DNA from: an uncultured Gammaproteobacteria bacterium
GTDB lineage: Bacteria; Patescibacteriota; Microgenomatia; UBA8517
Length of the DNA: 64,000 nt
Reading direction: 5' to 3'
Assembly (NCBI GenBank): GCA_964583105.1
Contig: CAZOUV010000004.1
Coordinates: 2,996 to 66,995 of the forward strand
Position numbers and translations under genes: made by a program. The notes beneath the pieces are model-generated. The model worked only from the letters and a program-made list of their open reading frames with translations. It was not told where the DNA came from and ran no database searches. Shown one piece after another: positions 2,687-47,127 of the stretch; the stretch's first letter is position 1; every line of letters begins with the position of its first letter.

Positions 2687-3112
2687 TCACAGTTTTTTAG
2701 AGAAGTAGGTCAATGAATTTCCTGAAGGAAAATCATCAAGTTTTCCGTAGGGTTTAAATCCTAGTTTTTCATAAAATCCTGGTGCCTGCCAAGAAAAAGT
2801 ATTTGTATAGATGATTGTACAGCCTCTTTTCTTTCCTTCTTTTTCCACAAGTTTAATTAGTTTTTTGCCGTAACCTTGTCCCCGTAGAGATTCTTCCACC
2901 CAAAGTGAATTTATTTCAATGCCGTTCCAAAGGACAGTAGCAATAGTACCTCCGTATACGTTTTTGTTTTTATCCTTCAGAAAAATATTTATAGTTTCAG
3001 AAGTTCTTTGATGGCCATGTTTTGTATGGTATGAAAGCATTCCATCAGCTAGGGTTTTATAATCTTTTGGTTTCGGTTTTCCTATTGTTATTTCAAAATT
3101 AGGATTGATCAT
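2687..3112 (-). CDS. GNAT family N-acetyltransferase
   Basis: 141 aa with the acetyl-CoA binding motif RGQGYGKKLIKLVE (Q/RxxGxG/A). Confidence 0.7.
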   Translation of the reverse strand: MINPNFEITIGKPKPKDYKTLADGMLSYHTKHGHQRTSETINIFLKDKNKNVYGGTIATVLWNGIEINSLWVEESLRGQGYGKKLIKLVEKEGKKRGCTIIYTNTFSWQAPGFYEKLGFKPYGKLDDFPSGNSLTYFSKKL

Positions 3113-4728: not shown

Positions 4729-5241
4729 TTGATGGAAAAGATTGAAAATGGCAAATTTGACATATCTATTTTGGGAAAAGGATCTAACAAGGCTATGATA
4801 TTTAATAAGCCCCTTAATGTTGAAGAACCAGTACAGTTTGCCCAACCACAAGAATCAAAGATTGCTCGCTATATGGTCGTATCTCCTCAGTTCGGGTTAG
4901 GAAAAATTGATTTTGTAAAGGCAACACAACCAATAGAGGGTGGAGAGTGGGAAGAGAGTAATGTTGTTGCACCGGATCGAGAAGGATTATTTAAAGATTT
5001 ATTAACCAAATATAAAGATGATGATAGTGGATATACTAAATTAGGTGTCTATGCCAATGATGGGGGTGAATTCATTCTCCATATAGGGGGTGAGGGTTTT
5101 GAAATCGACCCAGATATATCTATCGAAGTATTTGCAAATGTTAAAGAATTAAACAAAATAAATCTAAATAGCAGTGAATTAAGTAGCCAAATATTGACAG
5201 CTAGAATAGCTACCGTCAGTGAAGCTTCGAGTTTAATATAA
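4729..5241 (+). CDS. hypothetical protein
   Basis: 170-aa ORF with good coding look; no motif recognised. Confidence 0.4.
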   Translation: MMEKIENGKFDISILGKGSNKAMIFNKPLNVEEPVQFAQPQESKIARYMVVSPQFGLGKIDFVKATQPIEGGEWEESNVVAPDREGLFKDLLTKYKDDDSGYTKLGVYANDGGEFILHIGGEGFEIDPDISIEVFANVKELNKINLNSSELSSQILTARIATVSEASSLI

Positions 5242-11017: not shown

Positions 11018-11233
11018 ATGATTGAAATATCTGAAAGATTAAAGGCAATTTTTCCTAAAGCTTTACCGACCGAAGTGGAAAACAGAGTAAGAATGGATTG
11101 TAAAAAGGGAATAATTTGTCAAGAAAACCCCGACATAAGTCTTAATGGACTAGTTATTAATCACTGGTTTGGTCAACCACAAGGTGGTTGCAATGAATGT
11201 TTTCGACAATACCCCCACAGACCATCTAGATAG
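11018..11233 (+). CDS. hypothetical small Cys-containing protein
   Basis: Track ORF 10943..11233 overlaps tRNA-Gly, so the start is moved to the internal Met (MIEISERLKAIF...). Confidence 0.2.
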   Translation: MIEISERLKAIFPKALPTEVENRVRMDCKKGIICQENPDISLNGLVINHWFGQPQGGCNECFRQYPHRPSR

Positions 11234-11323
11234 AGGCTTCCAACAATAACTTGTGTTGTGTATTGTTAGCTTCCAATAGTTTTAACCCATCAAGCAAACT
11301 TTTAGTTTTTTTTCATATCTTCT

Positions 11324-11352
11324 TTGAGGATATTAATAAGTTCGACTATAAT
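11324..11352 (+). promoter_or_regulatory. sigma70-like promoter module TTGAGG-17-TATAAT (copy A of a duplicated ~65-bp element)
   Basis: -35 TTGAGG at 11324, a 17-bp spacer, perfect -10 TATAAT at 11347. A near-identical copy sits at 12109..12137. Confidence 0.35.
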
Positions 11353-11481
11353 GTGGTTACCAGCTCCTAAAGGAAATTCAGAGGGTTAGTGTTGCTTTAT
11401 ACCCTATTTTTTCCTTTTTTGTGAGTTCGACCGCACCAAATTTTTATTATCTTTTTGTACTATACCCATTATAATCATCTC

Positions 11482-11510
11482 TTGACATTATGAACATATG
11501 TTCATATAAT
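11482..11510 (+). promoter_or_regulatory. perfect-consensus sigma70 promoter with an embedded 14-bp palindromic operator-like site
   Basis: TTGACA (11482-11487), 17-bp spacer, TATAAT (11505-11510), then ATG at 11519, only 8 nt downstream (leaderless-like). The spacer contains the perfect palindrome TGAACATATGTTCA (11491-11504), a GAAC-N4-GTTC Cheo-box-like dyad. Confidence 0.5.
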
Positions 11511-11518
11511 ACAGCTGT

Positions 11519-11995
11519 ATGTTTGGAAGGCCAAAAAGAATAAGAACTGTAAGATATAACCCTGAAATTACCTACTTCAAACCTCTTGGTATTCCATTTA
11601 GTCATCTTGCCGAAGAGAATCTCACTCTTGATGAAGTTGAGTCTGTTAGATTGCATGATTTGGAGGGATTGGAACAAGAAACAGCTTCTAAAAAGATGGA
11701 TGTTTCCAGAGTAACCTTTCTAAGGATATTGCACTCTGCTCATAAAAAGGTAGCAAAGGCTTTAATCTATGGAAGAGCTTTGAGTTTGAAAGGGGGTGAT
11801 TATGTTATGCCTAATAAAATAAAAAGAGGATTTGTGCCTGGAATAGGACGTGGGTTTAGTCCTCAAGGGGCAACTATGGAATGTGTTTGTCCTAACTGCA
11901 ATACAAAAGCCCCTCACACACGTGGGGTTCCTTGCTTCACAATCAAGTGTCCAAAATGTGGTTCTCAAATGGCAGGTACTTTCTGCAAACCTTAA
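11519..11995 (+). CDS. DUF134/UPF0251-family predicted DNA-binding protein fused to a C-terminal Gly/Arg-rich segment and zinc ribbon
   Basis: N-terminus MFGRPKRIRTVRYNPEITYFKP matches the DUF134 start (MPRPxKxRRV...YFKP). The C-terminus is GIGRGFSPQG...CVCPNCN...CPKCG (Cys4). Confidence 0.55.
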   Translation: MFGRPKRIRTVRYNPEITYFKPLGIPFSHLAEENLTLDEVESVRLHDLEGLEQETASKKMDVSRVTFLRILHSAHKKVAKALIYGRALSLKGGDYVMPNKIKRGFVPGIGRGFSPQGATMECVCPNCNTKAPHTRGVPCFTIKCPKCGSQMAGTFCKP

Positions 11996-12005
11996 TGTTT
12001 TTAAC

Positions 12006-12203
12006 CTAGACATTAAGTTCTGGTGAAAGATATTTGTGAGAAATACCAATTTTGTTTTTCAATAATCGCAGTCCATTAAAAAGGTTTTGTGTTTCCTCTT
12101 TATCTTCCTTGAGGATATTAAGAAGTTCGACTATAATCTGTTTATCAGATCCAAACATACTAGTGCCGTATAAAATATACATAAGGGTACTAGAAACTAA
12201 CAA
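12006..12203 (-). CDS. hypothetical small protein
   Basis: 65 aa. Its 3' end (...IIVELLNILKED) is duplicated in degenerate, non-coding form at ~11290-11360. Confidence 0.25.
   Translation of the reverse strand: MLVSSTLMYILYGTSMFGSDKQIIVELLNILKEDKEETQNLFNGLRLLKNKIGISHKYLSPELNV
12109..12137 (+). promoter_or_regulatory. sigma70-like promoter module TTGAGG-17-TATAAT (copy B)
   Basis: TTGAGG at 12109, 17-bp spacer, TATAAT at 12132, 68 bp upstream of the HD-domain gene. Copy of the 11324..11352 element. Confidence 0.4.
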
Positions 12204-12205
12204 TT

Positions 12206-12889
12206 ATGAAACCAAATTTTATAGATATATCACGGGTAACATCAAAATCGCTTAAAGATAAAGAATATTTCTCCTCATTTCCCGAATACTACCAATTGGC
12301 CTCTGTAACTGAAAACGGTCTATGGCATAAAAATCAAAATGTTTTAGATCACGTTATTGATGTTTACTCCGGACTTGAGACGTTATTAAAATTCAATGAT
12401 TTGAAGATTGAGCAGAGAGATAAATTAAAAATCTATCTATCGGAAGTCGTCGGAAATATAACAAGACAAAACGTTCTTAAGGTTGCAACTTTGCTTCATG
12501 ATATTGCCAAAACTGACGTACTAATTAAAAGTTCCGATGGTAAAACCCTGTGCCCAGGCCATGATTTAATTGCGGCTGCAAGAGTAAAAACCTTTGCAGA
12601 AAGATTTGATCTAGATAGCAAAGCAGAATCGAATGTAGAGCAAATAGTCAGATATCATGGTTTTACCTCAGACATCCTAAATTTAATGATTGCAAATCAA
12701 GACAAAGATAAATACCTTCGAATATTTAATGAGACGGTTAGCGATGTGGCTATTGAGTTGGTTCTTTTAATGCACGCTGATTTATTGGGCTGTGACTTAG
12801 AAAAAAGTGATAAAAATGGATACGACAAGAGAATTACTCTTTTAGGGTGGATGTTAACAAACTTACTTAATAAGGTTACAGTAAGTTAA
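12206..12889 (+). CDS. HD-domain phosphohydrolase
   Basis: Metal-ligand motifs H (LDHVIDV), HD (LLHDIAK), H (PGHDLI) and D (MHADLLG) in HD-superfamily order. Confidence 0.65.
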   Translation: MKPNFIDISRVTSKSLKDKEYFSSFPEYYQLASVTENGLWHKNQNVLDHVIDVYSGLETLLKFNDLKIEQRDKLKIYLSEVVGNITRQNVLKVATLLHDIAKTDVLIKSSDGKTLCPGHDLIAAARVKTFAERFDLDSKAESNVEQIVRYHGFTSDILNLMIANQDKDKYLRIFNETVSDVAIELVLLMHADLLGCDLEKSDKNGYDKRITLLGWMLTNLLNKVTVS

Positions 12890-13670: not shown

Positions 13671-13746
13671 GGTGGGTGTAGCTCAGTTGGTTTAGAGCGC
13701 CACTTTGTGGAAGTGGAAGTCGCGAGTTCAAGTCTCGTCACCCACC
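13671..13746 (+). tRNA. tRNA-His (anticodon GTG) with encoded G-1
   Basis: Extra 5' G at 13671 opposite discriminator C. Acceptor gtgggtg/cacccac, anticodon stem ccact/agtgg with loop ttGTGga, T-arm gcgag-ttcaagt-ctcgt. Accessory DNA starts immediately 3'. Confidence 0.8.
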
Positions 13747-14136
13747 CAAGACTGAACTCATAAAAACGGGTGAGCTTGCTTTAGCCTCGAAGGAAGAGTT
13801 CGATATAGCTTTTTCAATATATTTAAATGGAGTCCTTGGTTTAATGGATAAAACTTTGTCTTTAATAGTTATTTCGCTTCCTGTAACCAACAAGATATTC
13901 TTTCTGTCTTCTGTCGTGCCATAATCCCATCTGTTTTTTAATGATATGGTGAAGTTAAACGTAGCAATCAAAGTATCAGTCCATTCGGATAGCTCATGAT
14001 CGGAGTTTTTCATTCTCCTATAAATGCTTTGTTTTTCAATCAAATACTTTTGTTTAAATCGTTTGTATTCTTCATTCGAAAGAAGTTCCTTGTCTTCATT
14101 TTCAACGGATAGCCACTTTTCGGTTAAGTTGTCCAT
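13738..14136 (-). CDS. C-terminal (coiled-coil) fragment of the large serine recombinase, in a different frame from the main ORF
   Basis: 132-aa ORF overlapping the stop of 14124..15293 by 13 nt. Together they total ~520 aa, the normal size of a large serine recombinase. Confidence 0.4.
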   Translation of the reverse strand: MDNLTEKWLSVENEDKELLSNEEYKRFKQKYLIEKQSIYRRMKNSDHELSEWTDTLIATFNFTISLKNRWDYGTTEDRKNILLVTGSEITIKDKVLSIKPRTPFKYIEKAISNSSFEAKASSPVFMSSVLGG

Positions 14137-15293
14137 CTTTGAAATGGCATTAGTATAGTCTGCCTTAAGTACGCCATGCTGTTTAAGTCTAACCGCCCGA
14201 TCCTGTCTTCCGCTTCTCTAAGCCATTTAATCATCCAATCAACATAACTTTTTTTAATAGTTAGGTTAGATAAGTATTTGCTGACTCGTTCCTTAAGTTC
14301 CGGGGCCGCTACCATAGGTTGATTACAGCCGATTCCCTTTTTACAACACTTGTAGTAATCAAAGACCTTACCGCTTTTTTTTGGATGAGTTTCCCCCGTC
14401 CAACGATAACCACATTCACCACACTTAATTGAACCTTGAAAATCAAAGGTATGAGTTTGGATTCGTGGATGACCTTTATTGACTAGAGCATCCTGAACAG
14501 CATCAAATTCAGAGTCGCTTACCATTGGAGTATGTTTACCTTGATAGGTAACACCATCGTAAATAAATCTGCCGGTATAAAAAGGATTTCGTAAGATATT
14601 GTATAACTGAGTTCTGCTTATTGATCTTCCCCTATTTGTTTTGATTCCCATTTGTATTGCTTTTCTGTAAAGCTCTTTAGTTGAAAACTTTCCTGTTATC
14701 GCCAGTTCAAAGATATGTTTTACTAATCTAAAGTAGAGAGGATGTGGAGATATTGTTCTTTCTCCTTGCCTTTTCTCTAAATCATTTTTGTATCCTGCCG
14801 GAGCCAGTCCTGGATAATCACCCAATTCAAGTTTTCTATCAACTCCCCGTTTAGTATCAATTCTTAAATCTCTGATAAACCTTTGTCCTTGGGAGCCTTC
14901 GATGGCCAAAGTAAAGTCTGAATCAGTTTCATCATAGGTTTTACTTGGCGTAACTATTTCAAGAATTCTTCCATCTGACAACCTTTGTCTGACAAGTCCT
15001 TCATCCTGAGGATTTCTAAAAAGTCTATTTGGTTTCCATGCAATAATGCCTTTGATATCTTGCCTTGTATCAATCATCTGAATTAGTTTGTTGAACTCTT
15101 CCCTTCCCGGTGCTTTTGCAGATTTACTTTCCGTATAAGTTGATAATATATTTAGTTTTCTCTCTTCCGCTAGTCGATAAAGTACTTCTAATTGATTCTC
15201 TATACTGACAACTTGTTGATCCTCACCTTCGGAGGATTTTCTAGCGTAGAGCAGATATTGGTCTTTCATAATTAATCTTTTGTCTAATTTCAT
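14124..15293 (-). CDS. large serine recombinase (resolvase/invertase catalytic domain + recombinase domain + zinc ribbon); probably frameshifted near its 3' end
   Basis: N-terminus LLYARKSSEGEDQQVVSIENQ (Y-x-R-x-S catalytic Ser motif), central recombinase domain, and a Cys cluster CGECGYRW...CCKKGIGC (zinc ribbon). Confidence 0.7.
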   Translation of the reverse strand: MKLDKRLIMKDQYLLYARKSSEGEDQQVVSIENQLEVLYRLAEERKLNILSTYTESKSAKAPGREEFNKLIQMIDTRQDIKGIIAWKPNRLFRNPQDEGLVRQRLSDGRILEIVTPSKTYDETDSDFTLAIEGSQGQRFIRDLRIDTKRGVDRKLELGDYPGLAPAGYKNDLEKRQGERTISPHPLYFRLVKHIFELAITGKFSTKELYRKAIQMGIKTNRGRSISRTQLYNILRNPFYTGRFIYDGVTYQGKHTPMVSDSEFDAVQDALVNKGHPRIQTHTFDFQGSIKCGECGYRWTGETHPKKSGKVFDYYKCCKKGIGCNQPMVAAPELKERVSKYLSNLTIKKSYVDWMIKWLREAEDRIGRLDLNSMAYLRQTILMPFQRWTT

Positions 15294-15298
15294 AGTAG

Positions 15299-15484
15299 TT
15301 AGTTAGAATATTTTGTCAATCCGACTGACTGGACTTTGTTCGAACTCTGAGGCTGTTTTATTAACATTTTGAATAAATTCATCATATTATTGGCCAAAGC
15401 GACTGCTTCTGAATCTGAAAGTATGGTGCTTTCTTCTTTAAAATAGATATTTTTAAACTCATCAATTGCTTTTTTTGGTAACAT
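15299..15484 (-). CDS. hypothetical protein (mobile-element cargo)
   Basis: 61-aa ORF co-oriented with the island genes. Confidence 0.25.
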   Translation of the reverse strand: MLPKKAIDEFKNIYFKEESTILSDSEAVALANNMMNLFKMLIKQPQSSNKVQSVGLTKYSN

Positions 15485-15490
15485 AAATTT

Positions 15491-15856
15491 TTATTTCTTC
15501 TCTTCAATTTCCTTTTCCAGTTTATCCAACCTGACTTCAACATCTGCTTTATCGTAAGCATCCAGGAAGCATCTAATTAGGAAACCCAGTGTATTTGCTA
15601 TTGGAGTAGCGGGAATATCCCCTCTCCAAACTCCATTTATTATCTTGGCAAGAAATATCTTTGCATCTTGGGCATTGTTCAAGCAGATTTCTTCTTCATA
15701 ATTTAATAGTGTTTTCTTTGGTGCCAAACCACCCTTTTTAACAGCCAGAGCTCTTTCTTCTTTTTTATGCGGATCATGAGTAAAACAAAAGGTACTATCA
15801 GATTGAGCATTGGCCTTACACTGAGAATTATTTTCTTTAATAAAAATGCATTTCAT
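15491..15856 (-). CDS. hypothetical protein, Cys/His-containing N-terminus
   Basis: 121 aa; CKANAQSDSTFCFTHDPH could be a small zinc-binding motif. Confidence 0.35.
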   Translation of the reverse strand: MKCIFIKENNSQCKANAQSDSTFCFTHDPHKKEERALAVKKGGLAPKKTLLNYEEEICLNNAQDAKIFLAKIINGVWRGDIPATPIANTLGFLIRCFLDAYDKADVEVRLDKLEKEIEEKK

Positions 15857-15857
15857 A

Positions 15858-16079
15858 CTAATTGTCAGTCTTTATTCCATACTTCTTCGTTAATTCCTCA
15901 GGAATGAACAAAACGTTGTCAAACTCATTAACCGGATAATTTTTCACCAAAACTTTTATTGTGTCGCTAGGCATTAATTTCCTAAACTTTCTTGCAAGAA
16001 TTTTTATTGTGTGTTTAGTAGACATGTCCCAATACCCTTCCATCTGAACTATAGAAAATAAGTTCCATAAAGCCGTCAT
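15858..16079 (-). CDS. hypothetical protein
   Basis: 73-aa ORF, tightly packed with its neighbours. Confidence 0.3.
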   Translation of the reverse strand: MTALWNLFSIVQMEGYWDMSTKHTIKILARKFRKLMPSDTIKVLVKNYPVNEFDNVLFIPEELTKKYGIKTDN

Positions 16080-16311
16080 TTAAACGGATCTTTTGTTCCA
16101 GTTCATTTAGATCTTTAGTTGTTTTTTCAATATCCGAAGACTTACTCAACTCTCTTTCCTTGTAGGCTTTCCATTCAGGAATACTAATTAAATCCTTTGG
16201 TCCCAAATCAAATAGCCATCTTTCAATTTTAAGCATGGAACTATAGTCAAAACCTTGCATATTAGTAATCGTTTTTTCTATCGTTTCAATCCTGTTTAGT
16301 ATTGTTTTCAT
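16015..16311 (-). CDS. hypothetical protein
   Basis: 98-aa ORF overlapping neighbours in operon-like fashion. Confidence 0.3.
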   Translation of the reverse strand: MKTILNRIETIEKTITNMQGFDYSSMLKIERWLFDLGPKDLISIPEWKAYKERELSKSSDIEKTTKDLNELEQKIRLNDGFMELIFYSSDGRVLGHVY

Positions 16312-16495
16312 AAGCTTTACTTGTAGGGGTATCCCCTTCAGACAAAGATGTTCCTCCCAAAATTGGAGGTGGCATTCTTTTACCGTTTATGTAAAACGGT
16401 TCTTTCATCGATACAATAGGTATGTACTTATCAAAGTCTTCCTCTTTCGGATTTAACTTTTTCTCTATATTTTTTAGTCTTGTTGATGTATTCAT
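16286..16495 (-). CDS. hypothetical protein
   Basis: 69-aa ORF. Confidence 0.25.
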   Translation of the reverse strand: MNTSTRLKNIEKKLNPKEEDFDKYIPIVSMKEPFYINGKRMPPPILGGTSLSEGDTPTSKAYENNTKQD

Positions 16496-16579
16496 ATTTT
16501 CTTAGTGTTATTATTAGTTAGTTATTTTTGCCTCCTAGCTTAAAAGTTCAGTTCGCAGGAAAACTAGGAGGCAATAAAA

Positions 16580-17122
16580 CTATCCTTTCGGTGTGATGAA
16601 AGGACTCTCTCCTTCAAAGACAAGTTCTAGATCGATATTTTCTAACTTCTCATCGACTAGTTTTTTAACCTCCTTTGACAATTCTTCCTTTGGCTTTGGA
16701 AAGAGATCATACTTAACGTCCATTGGGGTTTTGCCATTCTTGCGGGCTATTATCATGTCATATCCTCGTAAATCTCCCCAAGCTTCAATCTCCTCGTAAC
16801 CTTTTAAAGAATCCTGTATTCCTCTTTGAGTTATTTCGAGAATTTGAACATCTCCAGCTTCTCGGTTTAGTACCGCAAACATCCAGAAATGCTTTGCTCT
16901 ATTTCTAGGATCCGTTTGGTTTTTAACATTAGCAGGTACTTCTTCTTCTGTTCTTACCCGAACAGCAGTTTTTTTATCGTCTTTCTCTATCCAATATTTC
17001 CAGCCAACAACTACTGGAGATAAAATGCGAAAAGAATTGTCGCCTTCCTCTAGTGTCATATAGGCTGTTTTTGTCTTAGGTATTTCGTAGCCTTTGGGTA
17101 AAACGCTCATAAATTTATTCAC
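16580..17122 (-). CDS. hypothetical protein (possible phage-type DNA-binding/recombination accessory protein)
   Basis: 180 aa, acidic C-terminus, located just upstream of the replication genes. No motif recognised. Confidence 0.35.
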   Translation of the reverse strand: MNKFMSVLPKGYEIPKTKTAYMTLEEGDNSFRILSPVVVGWKYWIEKDDKKTAVRVRTEEEVPANVKNQTDPRNRAKHFWMFAVLNREAGDVQILEITQRGIQDSLKGYEEIEAWGDLRGYDMIIARKNGKTPMDVKYDLFPKPKEELSKEVKKLVDEKLENIDLELVFEGESPFITPKG

Positions 17123-17483
17123 CTCCTTTCTGTTTTCTGCTATATAAGTAGCAGTACTTGTTAACTTGAACTGAACTTTCTAATTTGAGTTGGGTTTGTA
17201 GTGTTAGCGGTTCCGCTTTTACCCCAAATAATGCTTCTGCATATTCCAAAATGGGAAATTCAACATTTGCTCGATAAAAAGAAAGTGCTGGTTTTTTGCT
17301 TCTTATATAAGGAAGAACATGTTCACAGAAATTTTTATACCTTTTAAGATTAAGAATTACTTTTGGTTTTATGTAAAGTTTTGTAAACTCTTTATCCTTA
17401 ACCACTAAAGCTTCCGCGTTTCTTTGACAGTAAGAACTTAGCACTTCTTCGCAGTTTTCAAATTTGGTTACTATATATTTCAT
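17115..17483 (-). CDS. hypothetical protein
   Basis: 122-aa ORF overlapping neighbours by a few nt. Confidence 0.3.
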   Translation of the reverse strand: MKYIVTKFENCEEVLSSYCQRNAEALVVKDKEFTKLYIKPKVILNLKRYKNFCEHVLPYIRSKKPALSFYRANVEFPILEYAEALFGVKAEPLTLQTQLKLESSVQVNKYCYLYSRKQKGGE

Positions 17484-18907
17484 ACTTTTTCTACCTCCGT
17501 TTCGGTTATTTCTTTGATTTCCTTAGGCTCTTCGGACACTAGGGACGCTTTTACAATCGTCTGTCGGTTCTTGTTAGGATTTGTGTATTCCAATCCATAT
17601 TGTTCTGCTAAGGATTCAATTAAGTCCGGATCAAATTCAATTCCCCTTTTACTTCTATCGGCATTTCTAATCATCTTGAAACCAAGTCCCCTTAGCTCTG
17701 ATCCAATTTTGTCTAGGCCATACCAAAACTTTTCTGCTCTTTCTAAATTTATTTGTGTTGTTATGTCTTGAGTCGATAAAAAGTTAGTATTTGCAATAAC
17801 ACTTCCTTGTAATGCAACAACCGCATTTAATAGTTTTGACTCAAGGGTTGATCCAGCTTCGTCTTTCTTTTGCGTTCTCGCATAGGCTCTAAAGTTAATA
17901 AAGTTCTTTTCATAATCAGGGAATAGTGTTCTTATCATCTGGTGGTATCCTCTTAAGTAGTTTTCGAGTTTTCCTGCTCTATCTTTGGTTAAGCCTATAA
18001 AGGAAGTATTAAAGTGAGCCATTCTAAAAGCGGTAAGCTTTTCTTTATAAGGAAGCCCTAATTCTGGTGTCGCTTCTACGTTAAATACTTTCTTGCTAAA
18101 GGGCATATTGAAAACAATGCATCTTGCTTCTGTTATTGCATCAACCATTACATTTGAAGTAGCTGCGGTAAGTCCAAATACTGAAAAATCCACCATATCC
18201 TTAAAAGCTCCTCTTTCCGGGTAAAGTACTCTCGAAGAGACAACTCCTCTTTCTGCTCGTCCAAAGATGAGATCTTCTGAATTACTTTTTTCTACCTTTA
18301 GTGGAAAGTTTCTAACATCAAAGAATAGCGAAGCTTCGTAATCACTTGCCCACCTAATAATATTTGGTTCTCTAAAGGTTTCTGTAAAGACTCCTCTTCT
18401 ACTTATGTACGCTAAAGCTTTAAGTGTTGGAGTTTTACCCCGGTCTTTTGTCGCAACCAAGAAAAGAATCGGAGAAAAGTTAAACTTCTCTATTAAGTGG
18501 GAATGAAAAGCAGTCCAAACCAAATAGTCATAATGAAGTTCTGTTGGCAAATCACTAAATTGCTTAAAGTAAGCTATTAACTCCGGATAAAGAGTTTTAT
18601 TGCAATATTGACAGACGGTAGTAGACGCGTCCTTAGTGTCCGTAGTGGTATGCTTTTCAAGTTCTTCAAGCACATTTTCAACCCTTGGTGTAAGCCAGGA
18701 TACTTTTTCTGGAGAGAAGTACTCTTTTCCACCAACAACAACTTTTGTAGTCAATTCTTTGTCAAAAGTTAGAAACTTAATGACTCCCTTTTCGTCAACT
18801 AAATCTACCAAGCCCTTAAAGTTGCCAAGATAAAAGACTCTATCTCTTTTCTCTTGAGTTACATCTTTAGCTGCTTTTGTTAATATCTCTTTATCCTTTT
18901 TCTTCAT
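17480..18907 (-). CDS. P-loop NTPase, putative replication protein (helicase/primase-associated)
   Basis: 475 aa. Walker-A-like LVATKDRGKT and a downstream hhhhD (LFFDV) Walker-B-like motif. Translationally coupled to the primase-zinc-finger gene. Confidence 0.45.
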   Translation of the reverse strand: MKKKDKEILTKAAKDVTQEKRDRVFYLGNFKGLVDLVDEKGVIKFLTFDKELTTKVVVGGKEYFSPEKVSWLTPRVENVLEELEKHTTTDTKDASTTVCQYCNKTLYPELIAYFKQFSDLPTELHYDYLVWTAFHSHLIEKFNFSPILFLVATKDRGKTPTLKALAYISRRGVFTETFREPNIIRWASDYEASLFFDVRNFPLKVEKSNSEDLIFGRAERGVVSSRVLYPERGAFKDMVDFSVFGLTAATSNVMVDAITEARCIVFNMPFSKKVFNVEATPELGLPYKEKLTAFRMAHFNTSFIGLTKDRAGKLENYLRGYHQMIRTLFPDYEKNFINFRAYARTQKKDEAGSTLESKLLNAVVALQGSVIANTNFLSTQDITTQINLERAEKFWYGLDKIGSELRGLGFKMIRNADRSKRGIEFDPDLIESLAEQYGLEYTNPNKNRQTIVKASLVSEEPKEIKEITETEVEKV

Positions 18908-19536
18908 ATCTGCAGTTTTCTAACTATTTCCATAAAACTCATATCTGGATTCAGTTTTTGCATATAGTCAATGCTGTTAAATCCGTGTTGGCCGCAACCA
19001 AAACAGTGAAAACTATTATCTTCATAGATATAGAAGCTGGGATTTTTCTCTCCGTGGAAGGGGCAGGGCGCTCTAAACTTATTGCCACACTGTTTCGCAT
19101 CCTCTAATAAGTACTGAATAGGATATTCTCTTGCCTGTTGTACTAATTTATCATTAAGGTGTTTTACTTCTGGCTCATAACCCGACAATCTTAACCAATA
19201 CTTTAACCAGTTTTTGAAGTTATTTTCGTACTCTTGAAGAGAATATGCTAAAACCTTTTTGTGTAGATCACTAGTTAGATTACTATTCTTAAACTCCTTT
19301 AAGTATTTCTCCTTGTTTTTATACAATTCCTTTATTTTGGTAACAGCAACATCTTCAACGCATTTTTTGAACTCTGGCTCAACTTCAGAACTGTATGGGG
19401 GATTTGTTTGATTGAATTTGCAACTCTTGTTTAGTGGATAGTTAGTGTAATCGATAGCATTTGAAGGTTGGTTTTTAATAAACTTTTCAAATTTTAAATT
19501 ATCTTTTTCTGTCCAACAGTTTCTTAAATTATTCAT
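18904..19536 (-). CDS. protein with C-terminal DnaG-type CHC2 primase zinc finger
   Basis: CPFHGEKNPSFYIYEDNSFHCFGCGQHGFNSIDYM matches the DnaG zinc-binding domain (CPFHxEKTPSF...FHCFGCG). Confidence 0.55.
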   Translation of the reverse strand: MNNLRNCWTEKDNLKFEKFIKNQPSNAIDYTNYPLNKSCKFNQTNPPYSSEVEPEFKKCVEDVAVTKIKELYKNKEKYLKEFKNSNLTSDLHKKVLAYSLQEYENNFKNWLKYWLRLSGYEPEVKHLNDKLVQQAREYPIQYLLEDAKQCGNKFRAPCPFHGEKNPSFYIYEDNSFHCFGCGQHGFNSIDYMQKLNPDMSFMEIVRKLQI

Positions 19537-41120: not shown

Positions 41121-44048
41121 TTAAAGGTATTTGGCTGTATATGAGTTTTTGGATTTTATAAGATCTTTAACACTTCCTTTTGCAACAATTTGACCCCCAC
41201 CTTCTCCTCCGTCAGGACCTAAATCAATTACATAATCCGCATTTTTAATTACATCGGTATTATGTTCAATCAAAAAAACACTGTTTCCCCGGTCAACCAA
41301 AAGCCTTAATACTTTTAATAATTTTTCAATATCTGCAAAATGAAGACCCGTGGTAGGTTCATCAAGTATATAAACGGTTTTTCCTGTTGCTTTTTTGCTA
41401 AGTTCTGAAGCAAGTTTTACTCTTTGAGCTTCTCCTCCGGAAAGAGTTGTTGCGGGCTGTCCCAGTTTAATATAACCCAAACCAACTTCTTTTAATGTTG
41501 CAAGTTTAGAAAGTATCATCGGATATCCATCAAAAAAATCGTATGCGTCATTTACGGTCATCTTAAGAATATCGGCAATATTTTTATTTCTAAATAAGAT
41601 ATCCAAAGTTTGAGAATTATATCTTTTGCCATGACATATATCGCAGGTAATCCAGATATCACTCATAAACTGCATTTCAATTTTTGTTTGACCCTGTCCT
41701 TCACAAGCCTCACACCTTCCCCCTTTTAAATTAAAGGAAAACCTGCTTTTTTTAAATCCTTGTGCTTTTGATTCTCTGAGATTAGCATAGACGTCCCTTA
41801 TGGGATCAAATACACCCGTATATGTTGCAGGGTTGGATCTTGGAGTTCTTCCAATCGGAGATTGATCAATAAGTATAACTTTATCTATTTCTTCTTTACC
41901 TTCCAAACGTTCAAATTTTCCGACACTTCCTCTATAGTCAGGGTTTAAATAACTAAAAAGAGCCGGATAAAGGGTTTCTACAAGAAGTGTCGATTTTCCG
42001 CTTCCAGAAACACCCGTAACCACAACAAGATTAGCCAAAGGAAATTCTACATCAATTTTTTTAAGGTTGTATTGGCAACAACCGTATAGTTTAATTTTTT
42101 GGGTTATTTCAGCATTTTTAAATGTTTTTGGGATTATTATTTTTCTTTTGTTGGAAAGAAATTGGCCCGTTATGGATTTTCTATTTTTTGATATTTCGGA
42201 AGGATTACCCTCAAAAACAATTTTTCCTCCGTTATCTCCAGCACCAGGGCCAAAATCAAAGACGTAATCGGCCTGCTTGATCATTTCTCTATCATGCTCA
42301 ACAACAATAACAGTGTTTCCCAAATCCCTTAATTTTTTAAGAGTATTTATAAGTTTTTGATTATCTTTTTGATGCAACCCGATTGTGGGTTCGTCTAAGA
42401 CATATAAAACTCCGGTTAATCCGGAACCTATTTGAGAAGCAAGCCTTATTCGTTGGGCTTCTCCTCCAGAAAGACTTCCTGCTTCTCTTGCAAGTGTAAT
42501 ATACTCAAGACCGACAGAAGAAAGAAAATTAAGTCTCGAAATAATTTCGTTTAATATTAAATTTGCTATCTCTTTTTCTTTAAGATTAAGTTTTTTTTCT
42601 TTAATTAAACTGACAGACCACTTAGTAATTTTTAAGATTGACAAATTTGTAACATCGGAAATTGATAATCCGTCAATTGTTACAGCTAAAGATTCCTTTT
42701 TTAATCTTTTACCTCCACATTGTTCGCAGACAATTTCTCTCATAAATTTTTCAATTTCCCCCTTTACGTAATCCGAAGTCGATTCTTTATATCTTCTATC
42801 CAAGTCTGCAATTATTCCAATAAACGGTTCTTGGATTCTTGTATACCTTCCCCATCTATTTTCTCCCTCAACCGTATACAAATGATTTCCGGTACCGTAA
42901 AGAAGAAGGTCGATTTCGTTTTTGGAAAGGTTTTTTATAGGAATTTTTGGGTTAATAGCATTATCTTTACAAACAGTTAAAAACGTTCTTGAATACCATG
43001 TTTCATGTTCAAACATTGAGGCAAACGGTAAGATCCCTCCTTCGGTTATAGATAATTCTTCTGCAAACAATAACTCCTTTTCTACTCTAAGAATTTTACC
43101 GAGCCCTGAACATTTGGGACAGGCTCCATGAGGAGAATTAAAAGAAAAATTTCTTGGTTCAATTTCTGCTATTTGAATATTATCTACGGGACATGCAAAT
43201 TTTTCAGAAAAAGTGTGATTTATAAATTTTTTAGGATACTCGGGAATACTAAAACCGGTGTCTTTAACGGCTGCAAAAATAGCATTTCCTTCTGAAAGAT
43301 TAAGCGCCTGCTGAAATGATTCCGAGAGCCTTACTTTTAAATTATCTAAAAAAATACTATCTTTAATATTTGTTTTGGTTAAGGATATTTTATCTATAAC
43401 TACTTCAATTGTGTGTCTGTTGGTTTTAATTAAAACAAAATCTTCGGATAAATCTTTAATAATTCCATCAAGTCTTATTTGCTTATATCCTTTAGCCTTA
43501 AGGTTATCAAAAAGAGATGAGAATTCTCCCTTTCTGTCTGCTACAACGGGTGAAAGAATTAAAAACCAACCTTTATGATTTGTTTTAACCTCTTCAAAAA
43601 CAATTTCCAATGATTTTCCTACAATTTGATCAAGTGTTTGATGAGAAATTTCCCTGCCGCATGTTGGACAATGAGGATGTCCGATACGGGCATAAAGGAG
43701 CCTTAAATAATCATAAATTTCAGTTACTGTCCCAACCGTACTTCTTGGATTTCGGGATGTGGTTTTTTGATCGATTGATATTGCTGGAGAAAGTCCTTCT
43801 ATATGATCACAATCGGGTTTTTCCATAATACCAAGAAACTGTCTAGCATATGTTGAAAGTGACTCAACATATCTTCTTTGGCCTTCGGCATATATGGTGT
43901 CAAAAGCCAGAGAACTTTTACCGCTTCCTGATACACCTGTAAAAACAACAAGTTTGTTTTTGGGAATATCAAGATCTACGTTTTTAAGATTATGCTGTCT
44001 TGCTCCTCTTATTTTAATATAATCCTGCATAATAAAATCCCGCCGCAT
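41121..44048 (-). CDS. uvrA: excinuclease ABC subunit A
   Basis: Two ABC ATPase modules (FTGVSGSGKSSLAFDT... and VTGVSGSGKSTLLVE...), two LSGGEAQR signature motifs, and zinc-finger Cys clusters. 975 aa. Confidence 0.95.
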   Translation of the reverse strand: MRRDFIMQDYIKIRGARQHNLKNVDLDIPKNKLVVFTGVSGSGKSSLAFDTIYAEGQRRYVESLSTYARQFLGIMEKPDCDHIEGLSPAISIDQKTTSRNPRSTVGTVTEIYDYLRLLYARIGHPHCPTCGREISHQTLDQIVGKSLEIVFEEVKTNHKGWFLILSPVVADRKGEFSSLFDNLKAKGYKQIRLDGIIKDLSEDFVLIKTNRHTIEVVIDKISLTKTNIKDSIFLDNLKVRLSESFQQALNLSEGNAIFAAVKDTGFSIPEYPKKFINHTFSEKFACPVDNIQIAEIEPRNFSFNSPHGACPKCSGLGKILRVEKELLFAEELSITEGGILPFASMFEHETWYSRTFLTVCKDNAINPKIPIKNLSKNEIDLLLYGTGNHLYTVEGENRWGRYTRIQEPFIGIIADLDRRYKESTSDYVKGEIEKFMREIVCEQCGGKRLKKESLAVTIDGLSISDVTNLSILKITKWSVSLIKEKKLNLKEKEIANLILNEIISRLNFLSSVGLEYITLAREAGSLSGGEAQRIRLASQIGSGLTGVLYVLDEPTIGLHQKDNQKLINTLKKLRDLGNTVIVVEHDREMIKQADYVFDFGPGAGDNGGKIVFEGNPSEISKNRKSITGQFLSNKRKIIIPKTFKNAEITQKIKLYGCCQYNLKKIDVEFPLANLVVVTGVSGSGKSTLLVETLYPALFSYLNPDYRGSVGKFERLEGKEEIDKVILIDQSPIGRTPRSNPATYTGVFDPIRDVYANLRESKAQGFKKSRFSFNLKGGRCEACEGQGQTKIEMQFMSDIWITCDICHGKRYNSQTLDILFRNKNIADILKMTVNDAYDFFDGYPMILSKLATLKEVGLGYIKLGQPATTLSGGEAQRVKLASELSKKATGKTVYILDEPTTGLHFADIEKLLKVLRLLVDRGNSVFLIEHNTDVIKNADYVIDLGPDGGEGGGQIVAKGSVKDLIKSKNSYTAKYL

Positions 44049-44167: not shown

Positions 44168-44383
44168 ATGGAACATAGAGCCACATATGTACCCGATTTA
44201 CGTTCAATTCCTTTAAGTTCTGTAGATAAAGAAAAACAAATACCTGGCTATATAATAGCGGATATGGGTAAAGTTATTGACATTTCCAGTATTTTTAATA
44301 ATCTGGCATATTGTAAACTACCAAAAAGCGAACAATGTAAACGCTGTGTTGCTAGAGAAAACTGTCCCGAATTAGTACATTAA
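44168..44383 (+). CDS. hypothetical small Cys-containing protein
   Basis: 71-aa ORF between uvrA and uvrB; C-terminal CKRCVARENC. Confidence 0.25.
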   Translation: MEHRATYVPDLRSIPLSSVDKEKQIPGYIIADMGKVIDISSIFNNLAYCKLPKSEQCKRCVARENCPELVH

Positions 44384-46389: not shown

Positions 46390-46473
46390 GAGAACTAAAT
46401 TTTATCATGAAATATAAAAAATTATATTCGGATATTGTTTGGCTTTGATATGGTAAGTTCCAGTTGACGAATC

Positions 46474-47127
46474 ATGGAAATGTTTCGTAATATTTATGTA
46501 TTAAATATGGCATTAGTTGTTTACAAAAGACAAGCTCAAATACTGGATTTTATTAAGCAGCATATTCAGTCTAAAGGTTCTGCTCCAACATTGAGAGAAA
46601 TTGCTGATTCTATTGGTGTTTCATCCTTGGCTACTGTTCATGAACATCTTCAGTCTCTTGTTACCAAAGGACTTATCAAAAGAAAAGGAGGAAAGGTAAG
46701 AAGTATCGAACTTAAAAACATTGATCTGAATTTTAATCCTCAGGGTGTAAGTGTGCCCATACTGGGTTTTATAGCAGCCGGAGCTCCTATTGAACCATAT
46801 ACCGACCCCAACGCAACGATGTCTATTCCTCCTAACTTTTATTCTCAGAAGAAAAGAGTTTATGTATTACAAGTTCGTGGAGAGTCAATGATTGATGAAC
46901 AAATAAGGGATGGCGATTATGTTGTAGTTGAACAGGAAGAAAGCGCAAATAACGGTGATATTGTGGTAGCACTTCTAGATAACGGTATGGCAACTTTAAA
47001 GCGATTTTTTAAAGAAGCAACCAGAATCAGACTTGAACCGGCCAACGCAAAGATGTCCCCTATTTTTGTCAAAAACGTAAGAATTCAAGGAAAAGTCGTG
47101 GGACTTGTAAGAAGATACACAAACTAA
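46474..47127 (+). CDS. lexA: LexA repressor (likely true start at ATG 46507)
   Basis: N-terminal winged HTH (QILDFIKQHIQSKGSAPTLREIADSIGVSSLATVHEHLQSLVTKGLIKR), Ala-Gly cleavage site (IAAGAP), and an S24 peptidase Ser/Lys dyad (GESM ... LKRF). Confidence 0.85.
   Translation: MEMFRNIYVLNMALVVYKRQAQILDFIKQHIQSKGSAPTLREIADSIGVSSLATVHEHLQSLVTKGLIKRKGGKVRSIELKNIDLNFNPQGVSVPILGFIAAGAPIEPYTDPNATMSIPPNFYSQKKRVYVLQVRGESMIDEQIRDGDYVVVEQEESANNGDIVVALLDNGMATLKRFFKEATRIRLEPANAKMSPIFVKNVRIQGKVVGLVRRYTN

What the first reader, a model, noticed from the sequence alone, without database searches (positions are those of the whole stretch)
11479..11995. Textbook sigma70 promoter with an embedded GAAC-N4-GTTC palindrome (Cheo-box-like) driving a leaderless DUF134-zinc-ribbon fusion gene
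TTGACA-17-TATAAT sits with the ATG only 8 nt after the -10. The 17-bp spacer holds the perfect 14-bp palindrome TGAACATATGTTCA. This matches the Gram-positive LexA/DinR SOS-box consensus CGAACRNRYGTTCG in its central 12 positions. A lexA gene is present in this window (46474..47127), so the gene may be SOS-regulated. Alternatively the DUF134 product, itself a predicted HTH protein, may autoregulate through this operator. The encoded protein fuses DUF134 to a Gly/Arg-rich stretch and a Cys4 zinc ribbon, domains that are usually separate neighbouring genes (DUF134 plus DUF5320-type).
Basis: partly seen in the sequence, partly recalled or inferred. Interest (0 to 1): 0.55.

Follow-up and report, generated by a model that had tools for sequence, protein, structure and literature searches.

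The report
DUF134 regulator's own operator site
The palindrome inside this near-perfect promoter is not a DNA-damage (SOS) box but most likely the docking site of the small DNA-binding protein encoded right behind it, a self-repressing switch that is conserved from tiny-genome bacteria to archaea and gives an uncharacterised regulator family its first predicted target.

Summary
TTGACA-17-TATAAT (11482-11510) is the only perfect sigma70 consensus in the window. It holds a perfect 18-bp palindrome, TATGAACATATGTTCATA (11489-11506). The ATG (11519) follows 8 nt after the -10 with no Shine-Dalgarno sequence.

The SOS reading fails:
- This is the only GAAC-N4-GTTC in 64 kb.
- None lies at the divergent uvrBA/lexA promoters.
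- lexA promoters of relatives carry a direct repeat instead.

- **Conservation:** the same palindrome family precedes DUF134 genes or their operons in CPR bacteria, DPANN archaea, Dehalococcoidia and Firmicutes, about 125-fold enriched.
- **Position:** it always overlaps the core promoter or start site.
- **Covariation:** the first residue of the predicted recognition helix tracks the operator. Arg goes with ..CATATG.. (35/35) and Gln with ..TATATA.. (35/35), with at least 3 independent switches.
- **Structural parallel:** the only PDB sequence relative, B. subtilis DeoR, reads TTGAACA with the aligned arginines.

The protein is DUF134 joined to a G/R linker and an unnamed Cys7His module. That module also exists as stand-alone small proteins.

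Most likely this is a negatively autoregulated, leaderless one-gene cassette. The mechanism is classical, but the family had no described operator. The signal it senses is unknown.

The parts
11482..11487 (+). -35 hexamer TTGACA
   Evidence: In CPR homologues TTGACA sits 2-3 nt upstream of the box.
11489..11506 (.). Perfect 18-bp palindrome TATGAACATATGTTCATA, the predicted operator of the DUF134 protein (core GAACATATGTTC, 11492-11503)
   Evidence: Conserved upstream of DUF134 genes or operons in 56 of 80 genome loci within 150 nt. Covaries with residue 64 of the protein.
11505..11510 (+). -10 hexamer TATAAT, overlapped by the operator's last two bases
11511..11518 (+). 8-nt discriminator or ultra-short leader (acagctgt) with no Shine-Dalgarno sequence
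   Evidence: The same 6-8 nt geometry is seen in L081, L085, L002, L005, L042 and L055.
11519..11995 (+). Gene for the 158-aa DUF134-linker-Cys7His protein
   Evidence: The N-terminus MFGRPKR aligns with the conserved MRGRPKR of homologues, so the start codon is correct.
11525..11806 (+). DUF134 (PF02001) domain, aa 3-96. It has a sigma-70-region-4-like HTH: helix 53-59 and recognition helix from residue 64.
11708..11710 (+). Codon of Arg64, the specificity residue that covaries with operator position +/-3 from the dyad
   Evidence: It aligns with base-contacting R34 of B. subtilis DeoR (PMC11229326).
11807..11881 (+). Gly/Arg-rich linker (aa 97-121), a degenerate copy of the DUF5320-type N-terminal motif MPNLDGTGPxGxGxxTGRG. 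The model gives low confidence here.
   Evidence: consensus; PF17253 in homologues.
11882..11986 (+). Cys7His module C-x-C-P-x-C-x5-H-x2-G-x-P-C-x4-C-P-x-C-x8-C (aa 122-156), predicted zinc-ribbon-like, covered by no Pfam family
11979..12029 (+). Imperfect inverted repeat across the stop codon. It is a possible weak terminator and marks the end of the cassette.
   Evidence: I1, 20-nt arms, 80% complementary. No T-run follows, and the terminator scan did not call it.

Best explanation
The palindrome is the operator of the protein encoded immediately downstream. The window comes from a Candidatus Woesebacteria (CPR) genome.

Proposed mechanism:
- A dimer of the DUF134/UPF0251 protein places one sigma-4-like HTH on each half-site (A/T)TGAACAT.
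- Arg64, at the start of the recognition helix, reads the G of the central CATATG.
- The site fills the -35/-10 spacer and overlaps the -10 of a consensus sigma70 promoter. A bound dimer therefore excludes RNA polymerase and the gene represses itself.
- Transcription should start at or within about 3 nt of the ATG, so the mRNA is leaderless.

The C-terminal Cys7His module probably binds metal. It either holds the dimer together or modulates DNA binding in response to a metal, redox or cofactor signal.

What is shown and what is inferred:
- Shown by computation: the anatomy, the conservation of the box with the gene across bacteria and archaea, and the covariation with residue 64.
- Inferred: dimeric binding, repression rather than activation, leaderless translation, and any sensing role of the tail.
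For: 1. **Footprinting.** In 80 genome loci, class-consensus boxes (up to 2 mismatches) occur 57 times in the 150 nt upstream of DUF134 starts (56 loci, 4.8 per kb). Elsewhere there are 27 (0.038 per kb), about 125-fold fewer. A stricter palindrome filter gives about 60-fold. Of the 27 elsewhere, 17 precede a DUF5320 gene, usually one heading an operon that contains DUF134. One precedes a MinD-like ATPase gene of the same cluster.
2. **CPR loci.** In 253 kb of CPR loci, the core GAACATATGTTC with up to 1 mismatch is found only in front of DUF134, in 17 of 23 loci.
3. **Position.** The box always overlaps core promoter elements. In CPR the layout is TTGACA-2/3 nt-box-(T)ATAAT. In DPANN archaea it lies between a TATA-like box and the ATG (-17 to -19 in 17 loci). 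In Dehalococcoidia it lies just downstream of the -10.
4. **Covariation.** The residue aligned to R64 is Arg in 35/35 loci with C/G at dyad +/-3 and Gln in 35/35 with T/A. Mutual information is 1.0 bit, the top of 100 columns (next 0.73). There are at least 3 independent joint switches on an NJ tree built without these residues. His63 goes with GCAT-TATA-ATGC boxes and Ala/Val63 with TGACATATGTCA. Arg-G and Gln-A are the classic preferred contacts (established knowledge).
5. **Fold.** The model gives pLDDT 88-97 for aa 30-90, with a helix starting at residue 64. It matches ECF sigma region 4 and the DeoR DNA-binding domain bound to DNA.
6. **DeoR parallel.** DeoR is the only PDB sequence relative (E 0.003). 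It binds TTGAACA half-sites, and its base-contacting R34 and R39 align with R64 and R69 (PMC11229326).
7. **Metagenome sample.** Of 120 metagenome places with the exact 16-mer, the first downstream ORF is DUF134 in 44, DUF5320 in 7 and NifX-like in 4.
8. **Promoter.** The perfect promoter is unique in the window, against 0.01 expected.
Against: - There are no binding, expression or TSS data for any member. The held literature has only incidental mentions of DUF134/UPF0251/COG1342.
- The covariation rests on at least 3 inferred switches, so part of the 70/70 agreement is shared ancestry.
- The same 16-mer is also the promoter palindrome of 13 ArsR-family genes in metagenomes. The sequence alone does not identify the binder.
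- Only one site exists in the 64 kb. No regulon beyond self-control is visible here, and the physiological role is open.
- The sign of regulation is inferred from position only.
- The tail's metal binding is inferred from conserved Cys and His residues.
Confidence: 0.85

Rival explanations
1. SOS box: LexA (46474/46507-47127) binds GAACATATGTTC as a Gram-positive-type Cheo box and makes the DUF134 gene damage-inducible.
For: The core fits CGAACRNRYGTTYC in its 12 central positions (the consensus is from my own knowledge). The ortholog L081 even reads CCGAACATATGTTCAT. A lexA gene is in the window.
Against: - There is no other GAAC-N4-GTTC in 64 kb and no match to the 16-mer with up to 3 mismatches.
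- In particular there is none in the 46390-46506 region between uvrB (44380-46389, minus strand, followed by uvrA) and lexA. A LexA box would be expected there.
- lexA promoters of relatives (79-89% identical LexA) carry GTTCG-N6-(G/A)TTCG between -35 and -10.
- PMC7739468 cites the Patescibacteria SOS study among cases where LexA evolved direct-repeat recognition.
- The box accompanies DUF134 in DPANN archaea.
- It covaries with a DUF134 residue.
- No LexA, UvrA or UvrB gene lies in any of the 120 metagenome loci that carry the 16-mer.
Confidence: 0.03
2. The site is an SmtB/ArsR-type (12-2-12-like) operator bound by a metal-sensing ArsR-family repressor encoded elsewhere in the genome. DUF134 would then be a target, not the binder.
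For: - 13 of 120 metagenome places with the identical 16-mer lie 16-67 nt upstream of ArsR-family (PF01022) genes.
- Published SmtB/ArsR sites have the same core, for example AATACCTGAACA-GA-TGTTCAAGTATT (PMC8790569).
- DPANN DUF134 operons contain ArsP_1-type permease genes.
Against: - No ArsR-like ORF is found in the window (hmmsearch, E up to 10).
- ArsR operators normally sit at the arsR gene or at a divergent partner.
- Box variation tracks the DUF134 recognition helix. An unlinked ArsR would not explain that.
- The 12-2-12 flanks match only 9/12 here (read).
Confidence: 0.04
3. The palindrome has no regulatory role. It is a chance AT-rich palindrome in the spacer of a strong constitutive promoter, or a by-product of promoter sequence constraints.
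For: A perfect 18-bp palindrome is expected 0.64 times per 64 kb at this composition. The half-site TGACAT/TTGACA resembles the -35 hexamer itself.
Against: - The same box is conserved at orthologous and non-orthologous promoters over bacterial and archaeal phyla with different promoter types.
- It also appears at DUF5320 and MinD-like genes.
- It covaries with the protein.
Confidence: 0.02
4. DUF134 binds the site but acts as an activator or as a promoter-specificity factor (its HTH is sigma-region-4-like) rather than as a repressor.
For: The fold is closest to ECF sigma region 4. The half-site GAAC resembles ECF -35 elements (own knowledge).
Against: - The promoter is already a 12/12 consensus with an optimal 17-nt spacer, so it needs no activator.
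- The site occupies the spacer and the -10 in bacteria, and the TATA-to-start interval in archaea. These are positions typical of repressors.
- A palindrome implies a dimer, not a sigma subunit.
- No sigma region 2 is present.
Confidence: 0.06

Closest known systems
Bacillus subtilis DeoR (SorC family) N-terminal DNA-binding domain and its operator
   Same: It is the only PDB sequence relative of the DUF134 profile (E 0.003; ISRPTVSRLL aligns with the DUF134 consensus ISRVTFLRIL, window VSRVTFLRIL). The fold is the same sigma-4-like HTH. It binds as a dimer to an inverted repeat whose half-site is TTGAACA, using R34 and R39 (PMC11229326). These align with window R64 and R69. It is a repressor whose operator overlaps the promoter.
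   Different: DeoR has a large sugar-phosphate effector domain and works as a tetramer on a 39-bp composite operator. Its half-sites are spaced differently (TTGAACA-AAA-TTTCAA). DUF134 has no SorC effector domain and carries a Cys7His tail instead. DUF134 half-sites abut (ATGAACAT|ATGTTCAT).
LexA / DinR Cheo box (CGAACRNRYGTTYC) of Firmicutes and relatives
   Same: It has an identical 12-bp core, GAAC-N4-GTTC, with an ATAT centre. It is a palindrome overlapping a promoter.
   Different: The box is not found at lexA, uvrB or uvrA in the same window. Relatives' lexA promoters use a direct repeat. The box goes with DUF134 into archaea and covaries with DUF134 residue 64.
SmtB/ArsR 12-2-12 operators
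   Same: The core TGAACA-NN-TGTTCA is shared. The exact 16-mer precedes 13 ArsR-family genes in the metagenome sample (PMC8790569). Both sit in a promoter-overlapping, autoregulatory position.
   Different: The binder there is a winged-helix ArsR dimer. No ArsR gene is in this window. Here the box's variation follows the DUF134 helix.
ECF sigma factor region 4 bound to -35 DNA
   Same: These are the best structural matches (SigR, sigmaE, SigD region 4; rmsd 0.6-2 Å over about 50 residues). Both recognise GAAC-like elements (own knowledge).
   Different: DUF134 has no region 2 and no sign of core-RNAP binding. It recognises a dyad, so it acts as a free dimeric DNA-binding protein.
DUF134 / DUF5320 / NifX-like (PF02579) / MinD-like Fe-S ATPase gene neighbourhood of anaerobes and archaea
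   Same: The window protein is a DUF134 member. Its linker is the DUF5320-type N-terminal motif. Its tail module is fused elsewhere to Nitro_FeMo-Co domains. The same box heads those operons.
   Different: In the window, and in 253 kb of CPR loci, none of the partner genes is nearby and the only boxed gene is DUF134 itself. The CPR version is a stand-alone, fused, self-regulated gene.

Membership tests
LexA (SOS) operator, Gram-positive Cheo-box type | Sequence fits CGAACRNRYGTTYC | tested here: met
   GAACATATGTTC fits the 12 central positions. The flanks are T/A, not C/G.
LexA (SOS) operator, Gram-positive Cheo-box type | The same motif lies upstream of lexA itself and of core SOS genes (uvrA/uvrB, recA) in the genome | tested here: not met
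   It is the only GAAC-N4-GTTC in 64 kb. There is no match with up to 3 mismatches elsewhere. The uvrB-lexA intergenic region 46390-46506 has none. recA is not in the window.
LexA (SOS) operator, Gram-positive Cheo-box type | The lineage's LexA recognises this palindrome | tested here: not met
   lexA promoters of L206, L207 and L209 carry GTTCG-N6-(G/A)TTCG direct repeats. PMC7739468 lists the Patescibacteria study among direct-repeat LexA motifs.
LexA (SOS) operator, Gram-positive Cheo-box type | The motif's distribution follows LexA | tested here: not met
   The motif follows DUF134 into DPANN archaea. No LexA, UvrA or UvrB gene lies in the 120 metagenome loci with the 16-mer.
DUF134 / UPF0251 (PF02001, COG1342) protein | Pfam PF02001 match above the gathering score | tested here: met
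   83.2 bits against a cut-off of 27, aa 3-96. Full-length homologues are annotated as UPF0251.
Autoregulated HTH repressor with palindromic operator | A dyad-symmetric site overlaps the core promoter of the regulator's own gene | tested here: met
   The 18-bp perfect palindrome sits within the -35/-10 spacer and overlaps the -10.
Autoregulated HTH repressor with palindromic operator | The site is conserved with the gene across distant taxa | tested here: met
   56 of 80 loci have it within 150 nt, about 125-fold enrichment. Further sites lie at operon heads.
Autoregulated HTH repressor with palindromic operator | Recognition-helix residues covary with operator bases | tested here: met
   R64/Q64 against C:G/T:A at dyad +/-3 agrees in 70/70 loci, with at least 3 independent switches.
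Autoregulated HTH repressor with palindromic operator | The protein binds the site and lowers transcription | not testable with these tools
   This needs EMSA or footprinting and reporter assays.
SmtB/ArsR 12-2-12 operator | TGAACA-N2-TGTTCA core within an imperfect 12-2-12 repeat | tested here: met
   The core is identical. The outer flanks pair 9/12 (example sites in PMC8790569).
SmtB/ArsR 12-2-12 operator | A cognate ArsR-family gene is adjacent or divergent | tested here: not met
   No ArsR-like ORF is found in the window. The adjacent gene is DUF134.
DUF5320 (PF17253) | Pfam PF17253 match | tested here: not met
   The window protein has no hit at E up to 0.01. The motif MPNLDGTGP..TGRG is degenerate here (MPNKIKRGFVPGIGRGF). 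Several homologues do carry PF17253.
Leaderless mRNA | No Shine-Dalgarno sequence, and the start codon lies within a few nt of the predicted TSS | tested here: met
   There are 8 nt between the -10 and the ATG, and no purine-rich SD. The N-terminus aligns with homologues. The same geometry is seen in 7 of 22 CPR promoters.
Leaderless mRNA | The mapped 5' end coincides with the start codon | not testable with these tools
   This needs dRNA-seq or 5' RACE.

The most novel reading that the evidence does not exclude
The DUF134 gene with its promoter-embedded operator is a self-contained, horizontally exchangeable one-gene sensor cassette shared by CPR bacteria and DPANN archaea.

- The same protein-operator pair works under a bacterial sigma70 promoter and under an archaeal TATA promoter.
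- The fused, so far unnamed Cys7His module is the sensor. It would bind a metal, an Fe-S cluster or a cofactor intermediate. This would tie the regulator to the enigmatic NifX-like/MinD-like/DUF5320 system. In other proteins the module is fused to NifX-like domains.
- In the streamlined Woesebacteria genome, only the sensor-regulator remains near its box.
- An internal start at Met97 (Shine-Dalgarno-like AAGGGGGTGA at 11790-11799) could additionally release the free tail protein.
Probability: 0.25. Interest if true: 0.7.

Novelty: new member of a known kind. Interest (0 to 1): 0.55.

Why it matters
DUF134/UPF0251 (COG1342) is a widespread family. Relatives were found in 215 stretches of species-representative genomes in one scan. 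It is annotated only as a 'predicted DNA-binding protein', and I found no functional study in the held literature.

This locus, read together with its relatives, gives the family three things:
- a concrete operator;
- a one-residue specificity rule (Arg reads G, Gln reads A);
- a core regulon (itself, DUF5320, NifX-like, MinD-like Fe-S ATPases, ArsP-type permeases).

All three can be tested directly by EMSA and reporter assays.

It is also one of very few predicted transcription factor-operator pairs for CPR bacteria and DPANN archaea. The same pair sits in bacterial and archaeal promoter architectures.

Finally, it is a caution for motif-based SOS or ArsR regulon prediction. One 16-mer is a look-alike for three unrelated regulator families.

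Tried and rejected
- **SOS reading.** I searched the window for GAAC-N4-GTTC and for the 16-mer with up to 3 mismatches and found only the site itself. I inspected the uvrB/lexA intergenic region. I fetched four lexA loci of relatives and found a direct repeat, not the palindrome. The reading is rejected.
- **ArsR reading.** It arose from the metagenome scan. No ArsR-like ORF is in the window, and the reading does not explain the covariation. It is kept only as a low-probability rival.
- **RNA element.** The only Rfam matches in the window are its six tRNA genes; none lies in this region. The palindrome lies upstream of the predicted TSS, so an RNA hairpin role was rejected.
- **Further regulon members in the window.** No second box was found. 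No DUF5320, NifX-like or MinD-like genes were found.
- **Solved structures.** No DUF134 structure exists. The single-sequence search gave nothing. The profile search gave only the DeoR DNA-binding domain at E 0.003.
- **Literature.** Searches for DUF134, UPF0251, PF02001, COG1342, DUF5320 and PF17253 gave only incidental mentions. The Patescibacteria SOS paper (Sanchez-Osuna 2017) is not held. I know its motif only through the citing sentence in PMC7739468.
- **The tail.** Pfam and NCBIfam gave no significant family.
- **Palindrome statistics.** On its own the palindrome is not significant, so the argument does not rest on it.
- **First palindrome filter.** It required xTG..CAx ends and missed most CPR sites, whose right arm ends ..GTTCTA. 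I replaced it with class consensuses and a core search.
Full report
**Observation**

Reading 11200-12300 confirms the anatomy. TTGACA lies at 11482-11487, followed by a 17-nt spacer, TATAAT at 11505-11510, 8 nt, and the ATG at 11519 of a 158-codon ORF ending at 11995.

The perfect palindrome is 18 bp, TATGAACATATGTTCATA (11489-11506). It is longer than reported and runs two bases into the -10.

The exact TTGACA-N17-TATAAT is unique in the 64 kb, against 0.01 expected. A perfect 18-bp palindrome alone is not unusual at 35% GC (0.64 expected). The case therefore has to rest on context and comparison.

The protein matches PF02001 (DUF134) over aa 3-96 at E 2e-23. Its tail carries C122, C124, C127, H133, C139, C144, C147 and C156, all invariant or nearly so among 23 full-length homologues. 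This is a Cys7His pattern rather than a Cys4 ribbon.

LexA homologues that are 94-97% identical come from Candidatus Woesebacteria. The window is therefore a CPR/Patescibacteria genome.

**The SOS reading**

The core GAACATATGTTC does fit the Gram-positive LexA box (consensus from my own knowledge). Four lines of evidence speak against that reading.

- GAAC-N4-GTTC occurs once in the window, at this site. The 16-mer with up to 3 mismatches also occurs only here.
- The window contains the best place to look for a LexA box. lexA (46474-47127, more likely starting at 46507 because homologues are 206 aa) is divergent from uvrB (44380-46389) and uvrA (41121-44048). That intergenic region has no such site.
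- In lexA loci of relatives (LexA 79-89% identical), the lexA promoter spacer carries a direct repeat, GTTCG-N6-(G/A)TTCG (L206, L207, partly L209).
- PMC7739468 cites the Patescibacteria SOS study among cases where LexA evolved direct-repeat recognition. I could not read that study itself.

**What the box goes with**

The full-length architecture (DUF134 + G/R linker + Cys-rich tail) is common. There are 102 protein clusters at about 100% coverage and 215 confirmed stretches in species-representative genomes. These come from Patescibacteria and also from DPANN archaea: Aenigmatarchaeota, Woesearchaeota, Nanoarchaeota, Iainarchaeota, Nanohaloarchaea and Micrarchaeota. DUF134-only relatives occur in Dehalococcoidia and Firmicutes.

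Printing the 90 nt upstream of each gene showed the same palindrome family almost everywhere:

| Box | Found in |
|---|---|
| ATGAACATATGTTC(AT/TA) | CPR and Aenigmatarchaeota |
| ATGAGCATATGCTCAT | Dehalococcoidia |
| ATGAATATATATTCAT | many Woesearchaeota-type loci |
| ATGCATTATAATGCAT | another archaeal group |
| ATGGGTATATATTCAT and ATGAATAATTATTCAT | further bacterial MAGs |
| TGACATATGT(C/T)A | a Berkelbacteria-like group |

Quantitatively, class consensuses with up to 2 mismatches hit 57 times in the 150 nt upstream of DUF134 starts (56 of 80 loci, 4.8 per kb). They hit 27 times in the remaining 702 kb (0.038 per kb). A stricter palindrome filter gave about 60-fold enrichment.

Most of the 27 'elsewhere' hits are not background. 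Seventeen lie 30-90 nt upstream of a DUF5320 gene. Such a gene typically heads an operon of this form:

- DUF5320
- two ArsP_1-type half-permeases
- a NifX-like gene (PF02579)
- DUF134

One more hit precedes a MinD-like ATPase with a 4Fe-4S insert.

In 253 kb of CPR loci, the 12-bp core with up to 1 mismatch occurs only in front of DUF134 (17 of 23 loci).

In a sample of 120 metagenome contigs carrying the exact 16-mer, the first downstream ORF is DUF134 in 44, DUF5320 in 7 and NifX-like in 4.

Archaea as a rule have no LexA (established knowledge). The box therefore belongs to the DUF134 system, not to SOS.

**Who binds it**

The model of the window protein is confident over aa 30-90 (pLDDT 88-97). 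It shows strand 32-36, helices 37-48 and 53-59, and a long helix from residue 64. Foldseek places this HTH next to ECF sigma region 4 and the DNA-bound B. subtilis DeoR domain.

I aligned 81 proteins and paired 70 of them with their curated boxes. The residue at window position 64, the first of the recognition helix, is Arg in all 35 loci whose box reads ..CATATG.. at the dyad. It is Gln in all 35 whose box reads ..TATATA.. or ..TTATAA...

- Mutual information is 1.0 bit, the highest of 100 columns; the next is 0.73.
- On an NJ tree built without residues 63-64, both characters change together at least 3 times.
- Position 63 adds a second layer. His goes with GCAT-TATA-ATGC, and Ala/Val with TGACATATGTCA.
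- Arg-guanine and Gln-adenine are the textbook preferred contacts (established knowledge).

The only PDB sequence relative of the family profile is the DeoR DNA-binding domain (E 0.003). Its ISRPTVSRLL aligns with the DUF134 consensus ISRVTFLRIL (window VSRVTFLRIL). DeoR binds TTGAACA half-sites, and R34 and R39 are among its base-contacting residues (PMC11229326). By chain-length offsets, these align with window R64 and R69.

Together this makes the DUF134 protein itself the binder.

**How it most likely works**

In every lineage the box overlaps the core promoter.

- **CPR.** The module is TTGACA-2/3 nt-box-(T)ATAAT. A dimer on the box would occupy the spacer and the -10.
- **DPANN.** The box lies between a TATA-like element and the ATG, at -17 to -19 in 17 loci.
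- **Dehalococcoidia.** It lies just downstream of the -10.

These are repressor positions. The window promoter is already a 12/12 consensus with optimal spacing and needs no activator. I therefore infer negative autoregulation.

The window has 8 nt between the -10 and the ATG and no Shine-Dalgarno sequence. The N-terminus (MFGRPKR) aligns with the family's conserved MRGRPKR. The mRNA should therefore be leaderless or have at most about 3 nt of leader (sigma70 start-site spacing is established knowledge).

The same geometry recurs in the closest relatives L081-L085, in L002 and L005, and in the SQ-class L042 and L055. Other CPR orthologs have 18-26-nt leaders with AAAGGA. The archaeal genes are leaderless by the same reasoning.

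**The tail**

A full-library search with aa 97-158 found 806 relatives. They fall into three groups:

- many stand-alone 50-90-aa proteins that begin MPNKDG(R/T)GP.. and end with the same CxCPxCG..H..PC..CPxC pattern (P0279, P0286, P0248, P0251);
- signal-peptide proteins with 2-3 tandem copies (P0230, P0233, P0236);
- 600-1000-aa proteins combining PDZ or rhodanese domains and a C-terminal Nitro_FeMo-Co domain with three or four stretches matching the tail.

No Pfam or NCBIfam model covers the module.

But the fused form is the norm in CPR and DPANN, and the Cys-rich part is a separate, unnamed module linked to NifX-like domains.

Eight conserved ligands suggest two Zn sites or an Fe-S cluster. 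Whether the module dimerises the regulator or senses a signal is not shown.

**A look-alike worth noting**

Thirteen of the 120 metagenome sites lie just upstream of ArsR-family genes. Published SmtB/ArsR 12-2-12 operators share the core TGAACA-NN-TGTTCA (PMC8790569). The same 16-mer therefore resembles operators of three unrelated families: LexA, ArsR and DUF134.

Here the ArsR reading is unlikely. No ArsR-like ORF is in the window, and the covariation points to DUF134. The genome outside the window is unseen, however.

**Limits**

- There are no experimental data for any family member in the held literature.
- Part of the 70/70 covariation is shared ancestry.
- The window shows only self-regulation, so the physiological role in this organism remains open.

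**Verdict**

The mechanism is an ordinary one: a dimeric HTH autorepressor on a promoter-embedded palindrome. It is assigned here to an uncharacterised but widespread family, with a specificity rule and a core regulon, and it is conserved across the bacteria-archaea divide.

Noticed in passing
window 11270-11465 and 12055-12235: A degenerate direct repeat of about 190 nt brackets the DUF134 cassette. Its 55-nt core (11316-11370 and 12101-12155) is 87% identical. Each copy holds a TTGAGG-17-TATAAT promoter-like site, found only twice in the window against 0 expected. Copy B is the promoter, leader and first codons of the HD-domain gene (12206-12889). Copy A is a decayed duplicate with a frameshift on the minus-strand reading IIVEL(I/L)NILKED. 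This suggests the cassette was inserted or duplicated here. Orthologs sit in varying contexts.
   Followed up: partly
window 13672-19536: tRNA-His (13672-13747) is followed by a large serine recombinase gene (14124-15293, minus strand; Resolvase + Recombinase + Zn_ribbon_recom). After it comes a run of minus-strand ORFs without Pfam hits and one with a DnaG-type CHC2 zinc finger (18904-19536). This is probably an integrated mobile element or prophage remnant.
   Followed up: partly
window 46464-46509; L206, L207 and L209 at about 2950-3003: The lexA start is probably 46507, not 46474, because homologues are 206 aa. The lexA promoter reads TTGACG (46464-46469), 18 nt, TAATAT (46488-46493). In relatives the spacer holds a direct repeat, GTTCG-N6-(G/A)TTCG, a candidate LexA box for this lineage. 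The window's copy is degenerate (..ATCATGGAAATGTTTCG..).
   Followed up: partly
L088, L096, L120, L123, L127, L128, L130, L133, L144, L158, L170, L183, L199 (sites listed): The identical 16-mer ATGAACATATGTTCAT lies 16-67 nt upstream of ArsR-family (PF01022) genes. Some of these are divergent from small CxxC...CCSHC metal-binding genes. Two unrelated HTH families thus share one operator sequence. DPANN DUF134 operons also carry ArsP_1-type permeases. Whether this is convergence or regulator replacement is unresolved.
   Followed up: partly
proteins P0224, P0227, P0229, P0230, P0233, P0236, P0248, P0251, P0279, P0286 (relatives of window aa 97-158): The Cys7His module CxCPxCG-x4-H-x2-G-x-PC-x4-C(P/S)xC has no Pfam family. 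It occurs as stand-alone 50-90-aa proteins and as tandem copies behind signal peptides. It also occurs in large PDZ or rhodanese proteins that end in a NifX-like (Nitro_FeMo-Co) domain.
   Followed up: partly
window 11790-11809: A strong Shine-Dalgarno-like AAGGGGGTGA lies 7 nt before the in-frame ATG of Met97, which is exactly where stand-alone tail proteins begin (MPN..). It may only reflect the codons of the invariant K-G-G-D. It could also allow internal initiation of a free tail protein.
   Followed up: no
L067 at 8803 and L076 at 9881: In two Firmicutes loci a variant box (TATGATATAAGTCATA and TATGATATAGGTCATA, 2 mismatches to the TGACATATGTCA class) lies about 90 nt upstream of a gene starting MLSIF..MFCYQC(G/E)QT. 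That sequence looks like a hybrid-cluster protein, although this was not checked. It is a possible extra regulon member or another factor's site.
   Followed up: no
L013 at 4870-4982: In the complete Berkelbacteria genome CP011213.1 the box is separated from the DUF134 start by three tandem copies of a roughly 28-nt unit (caatttgatttcaaacttgtttataat). The leader is therefore 111 nt long instead of about 20.
   Followed up: no
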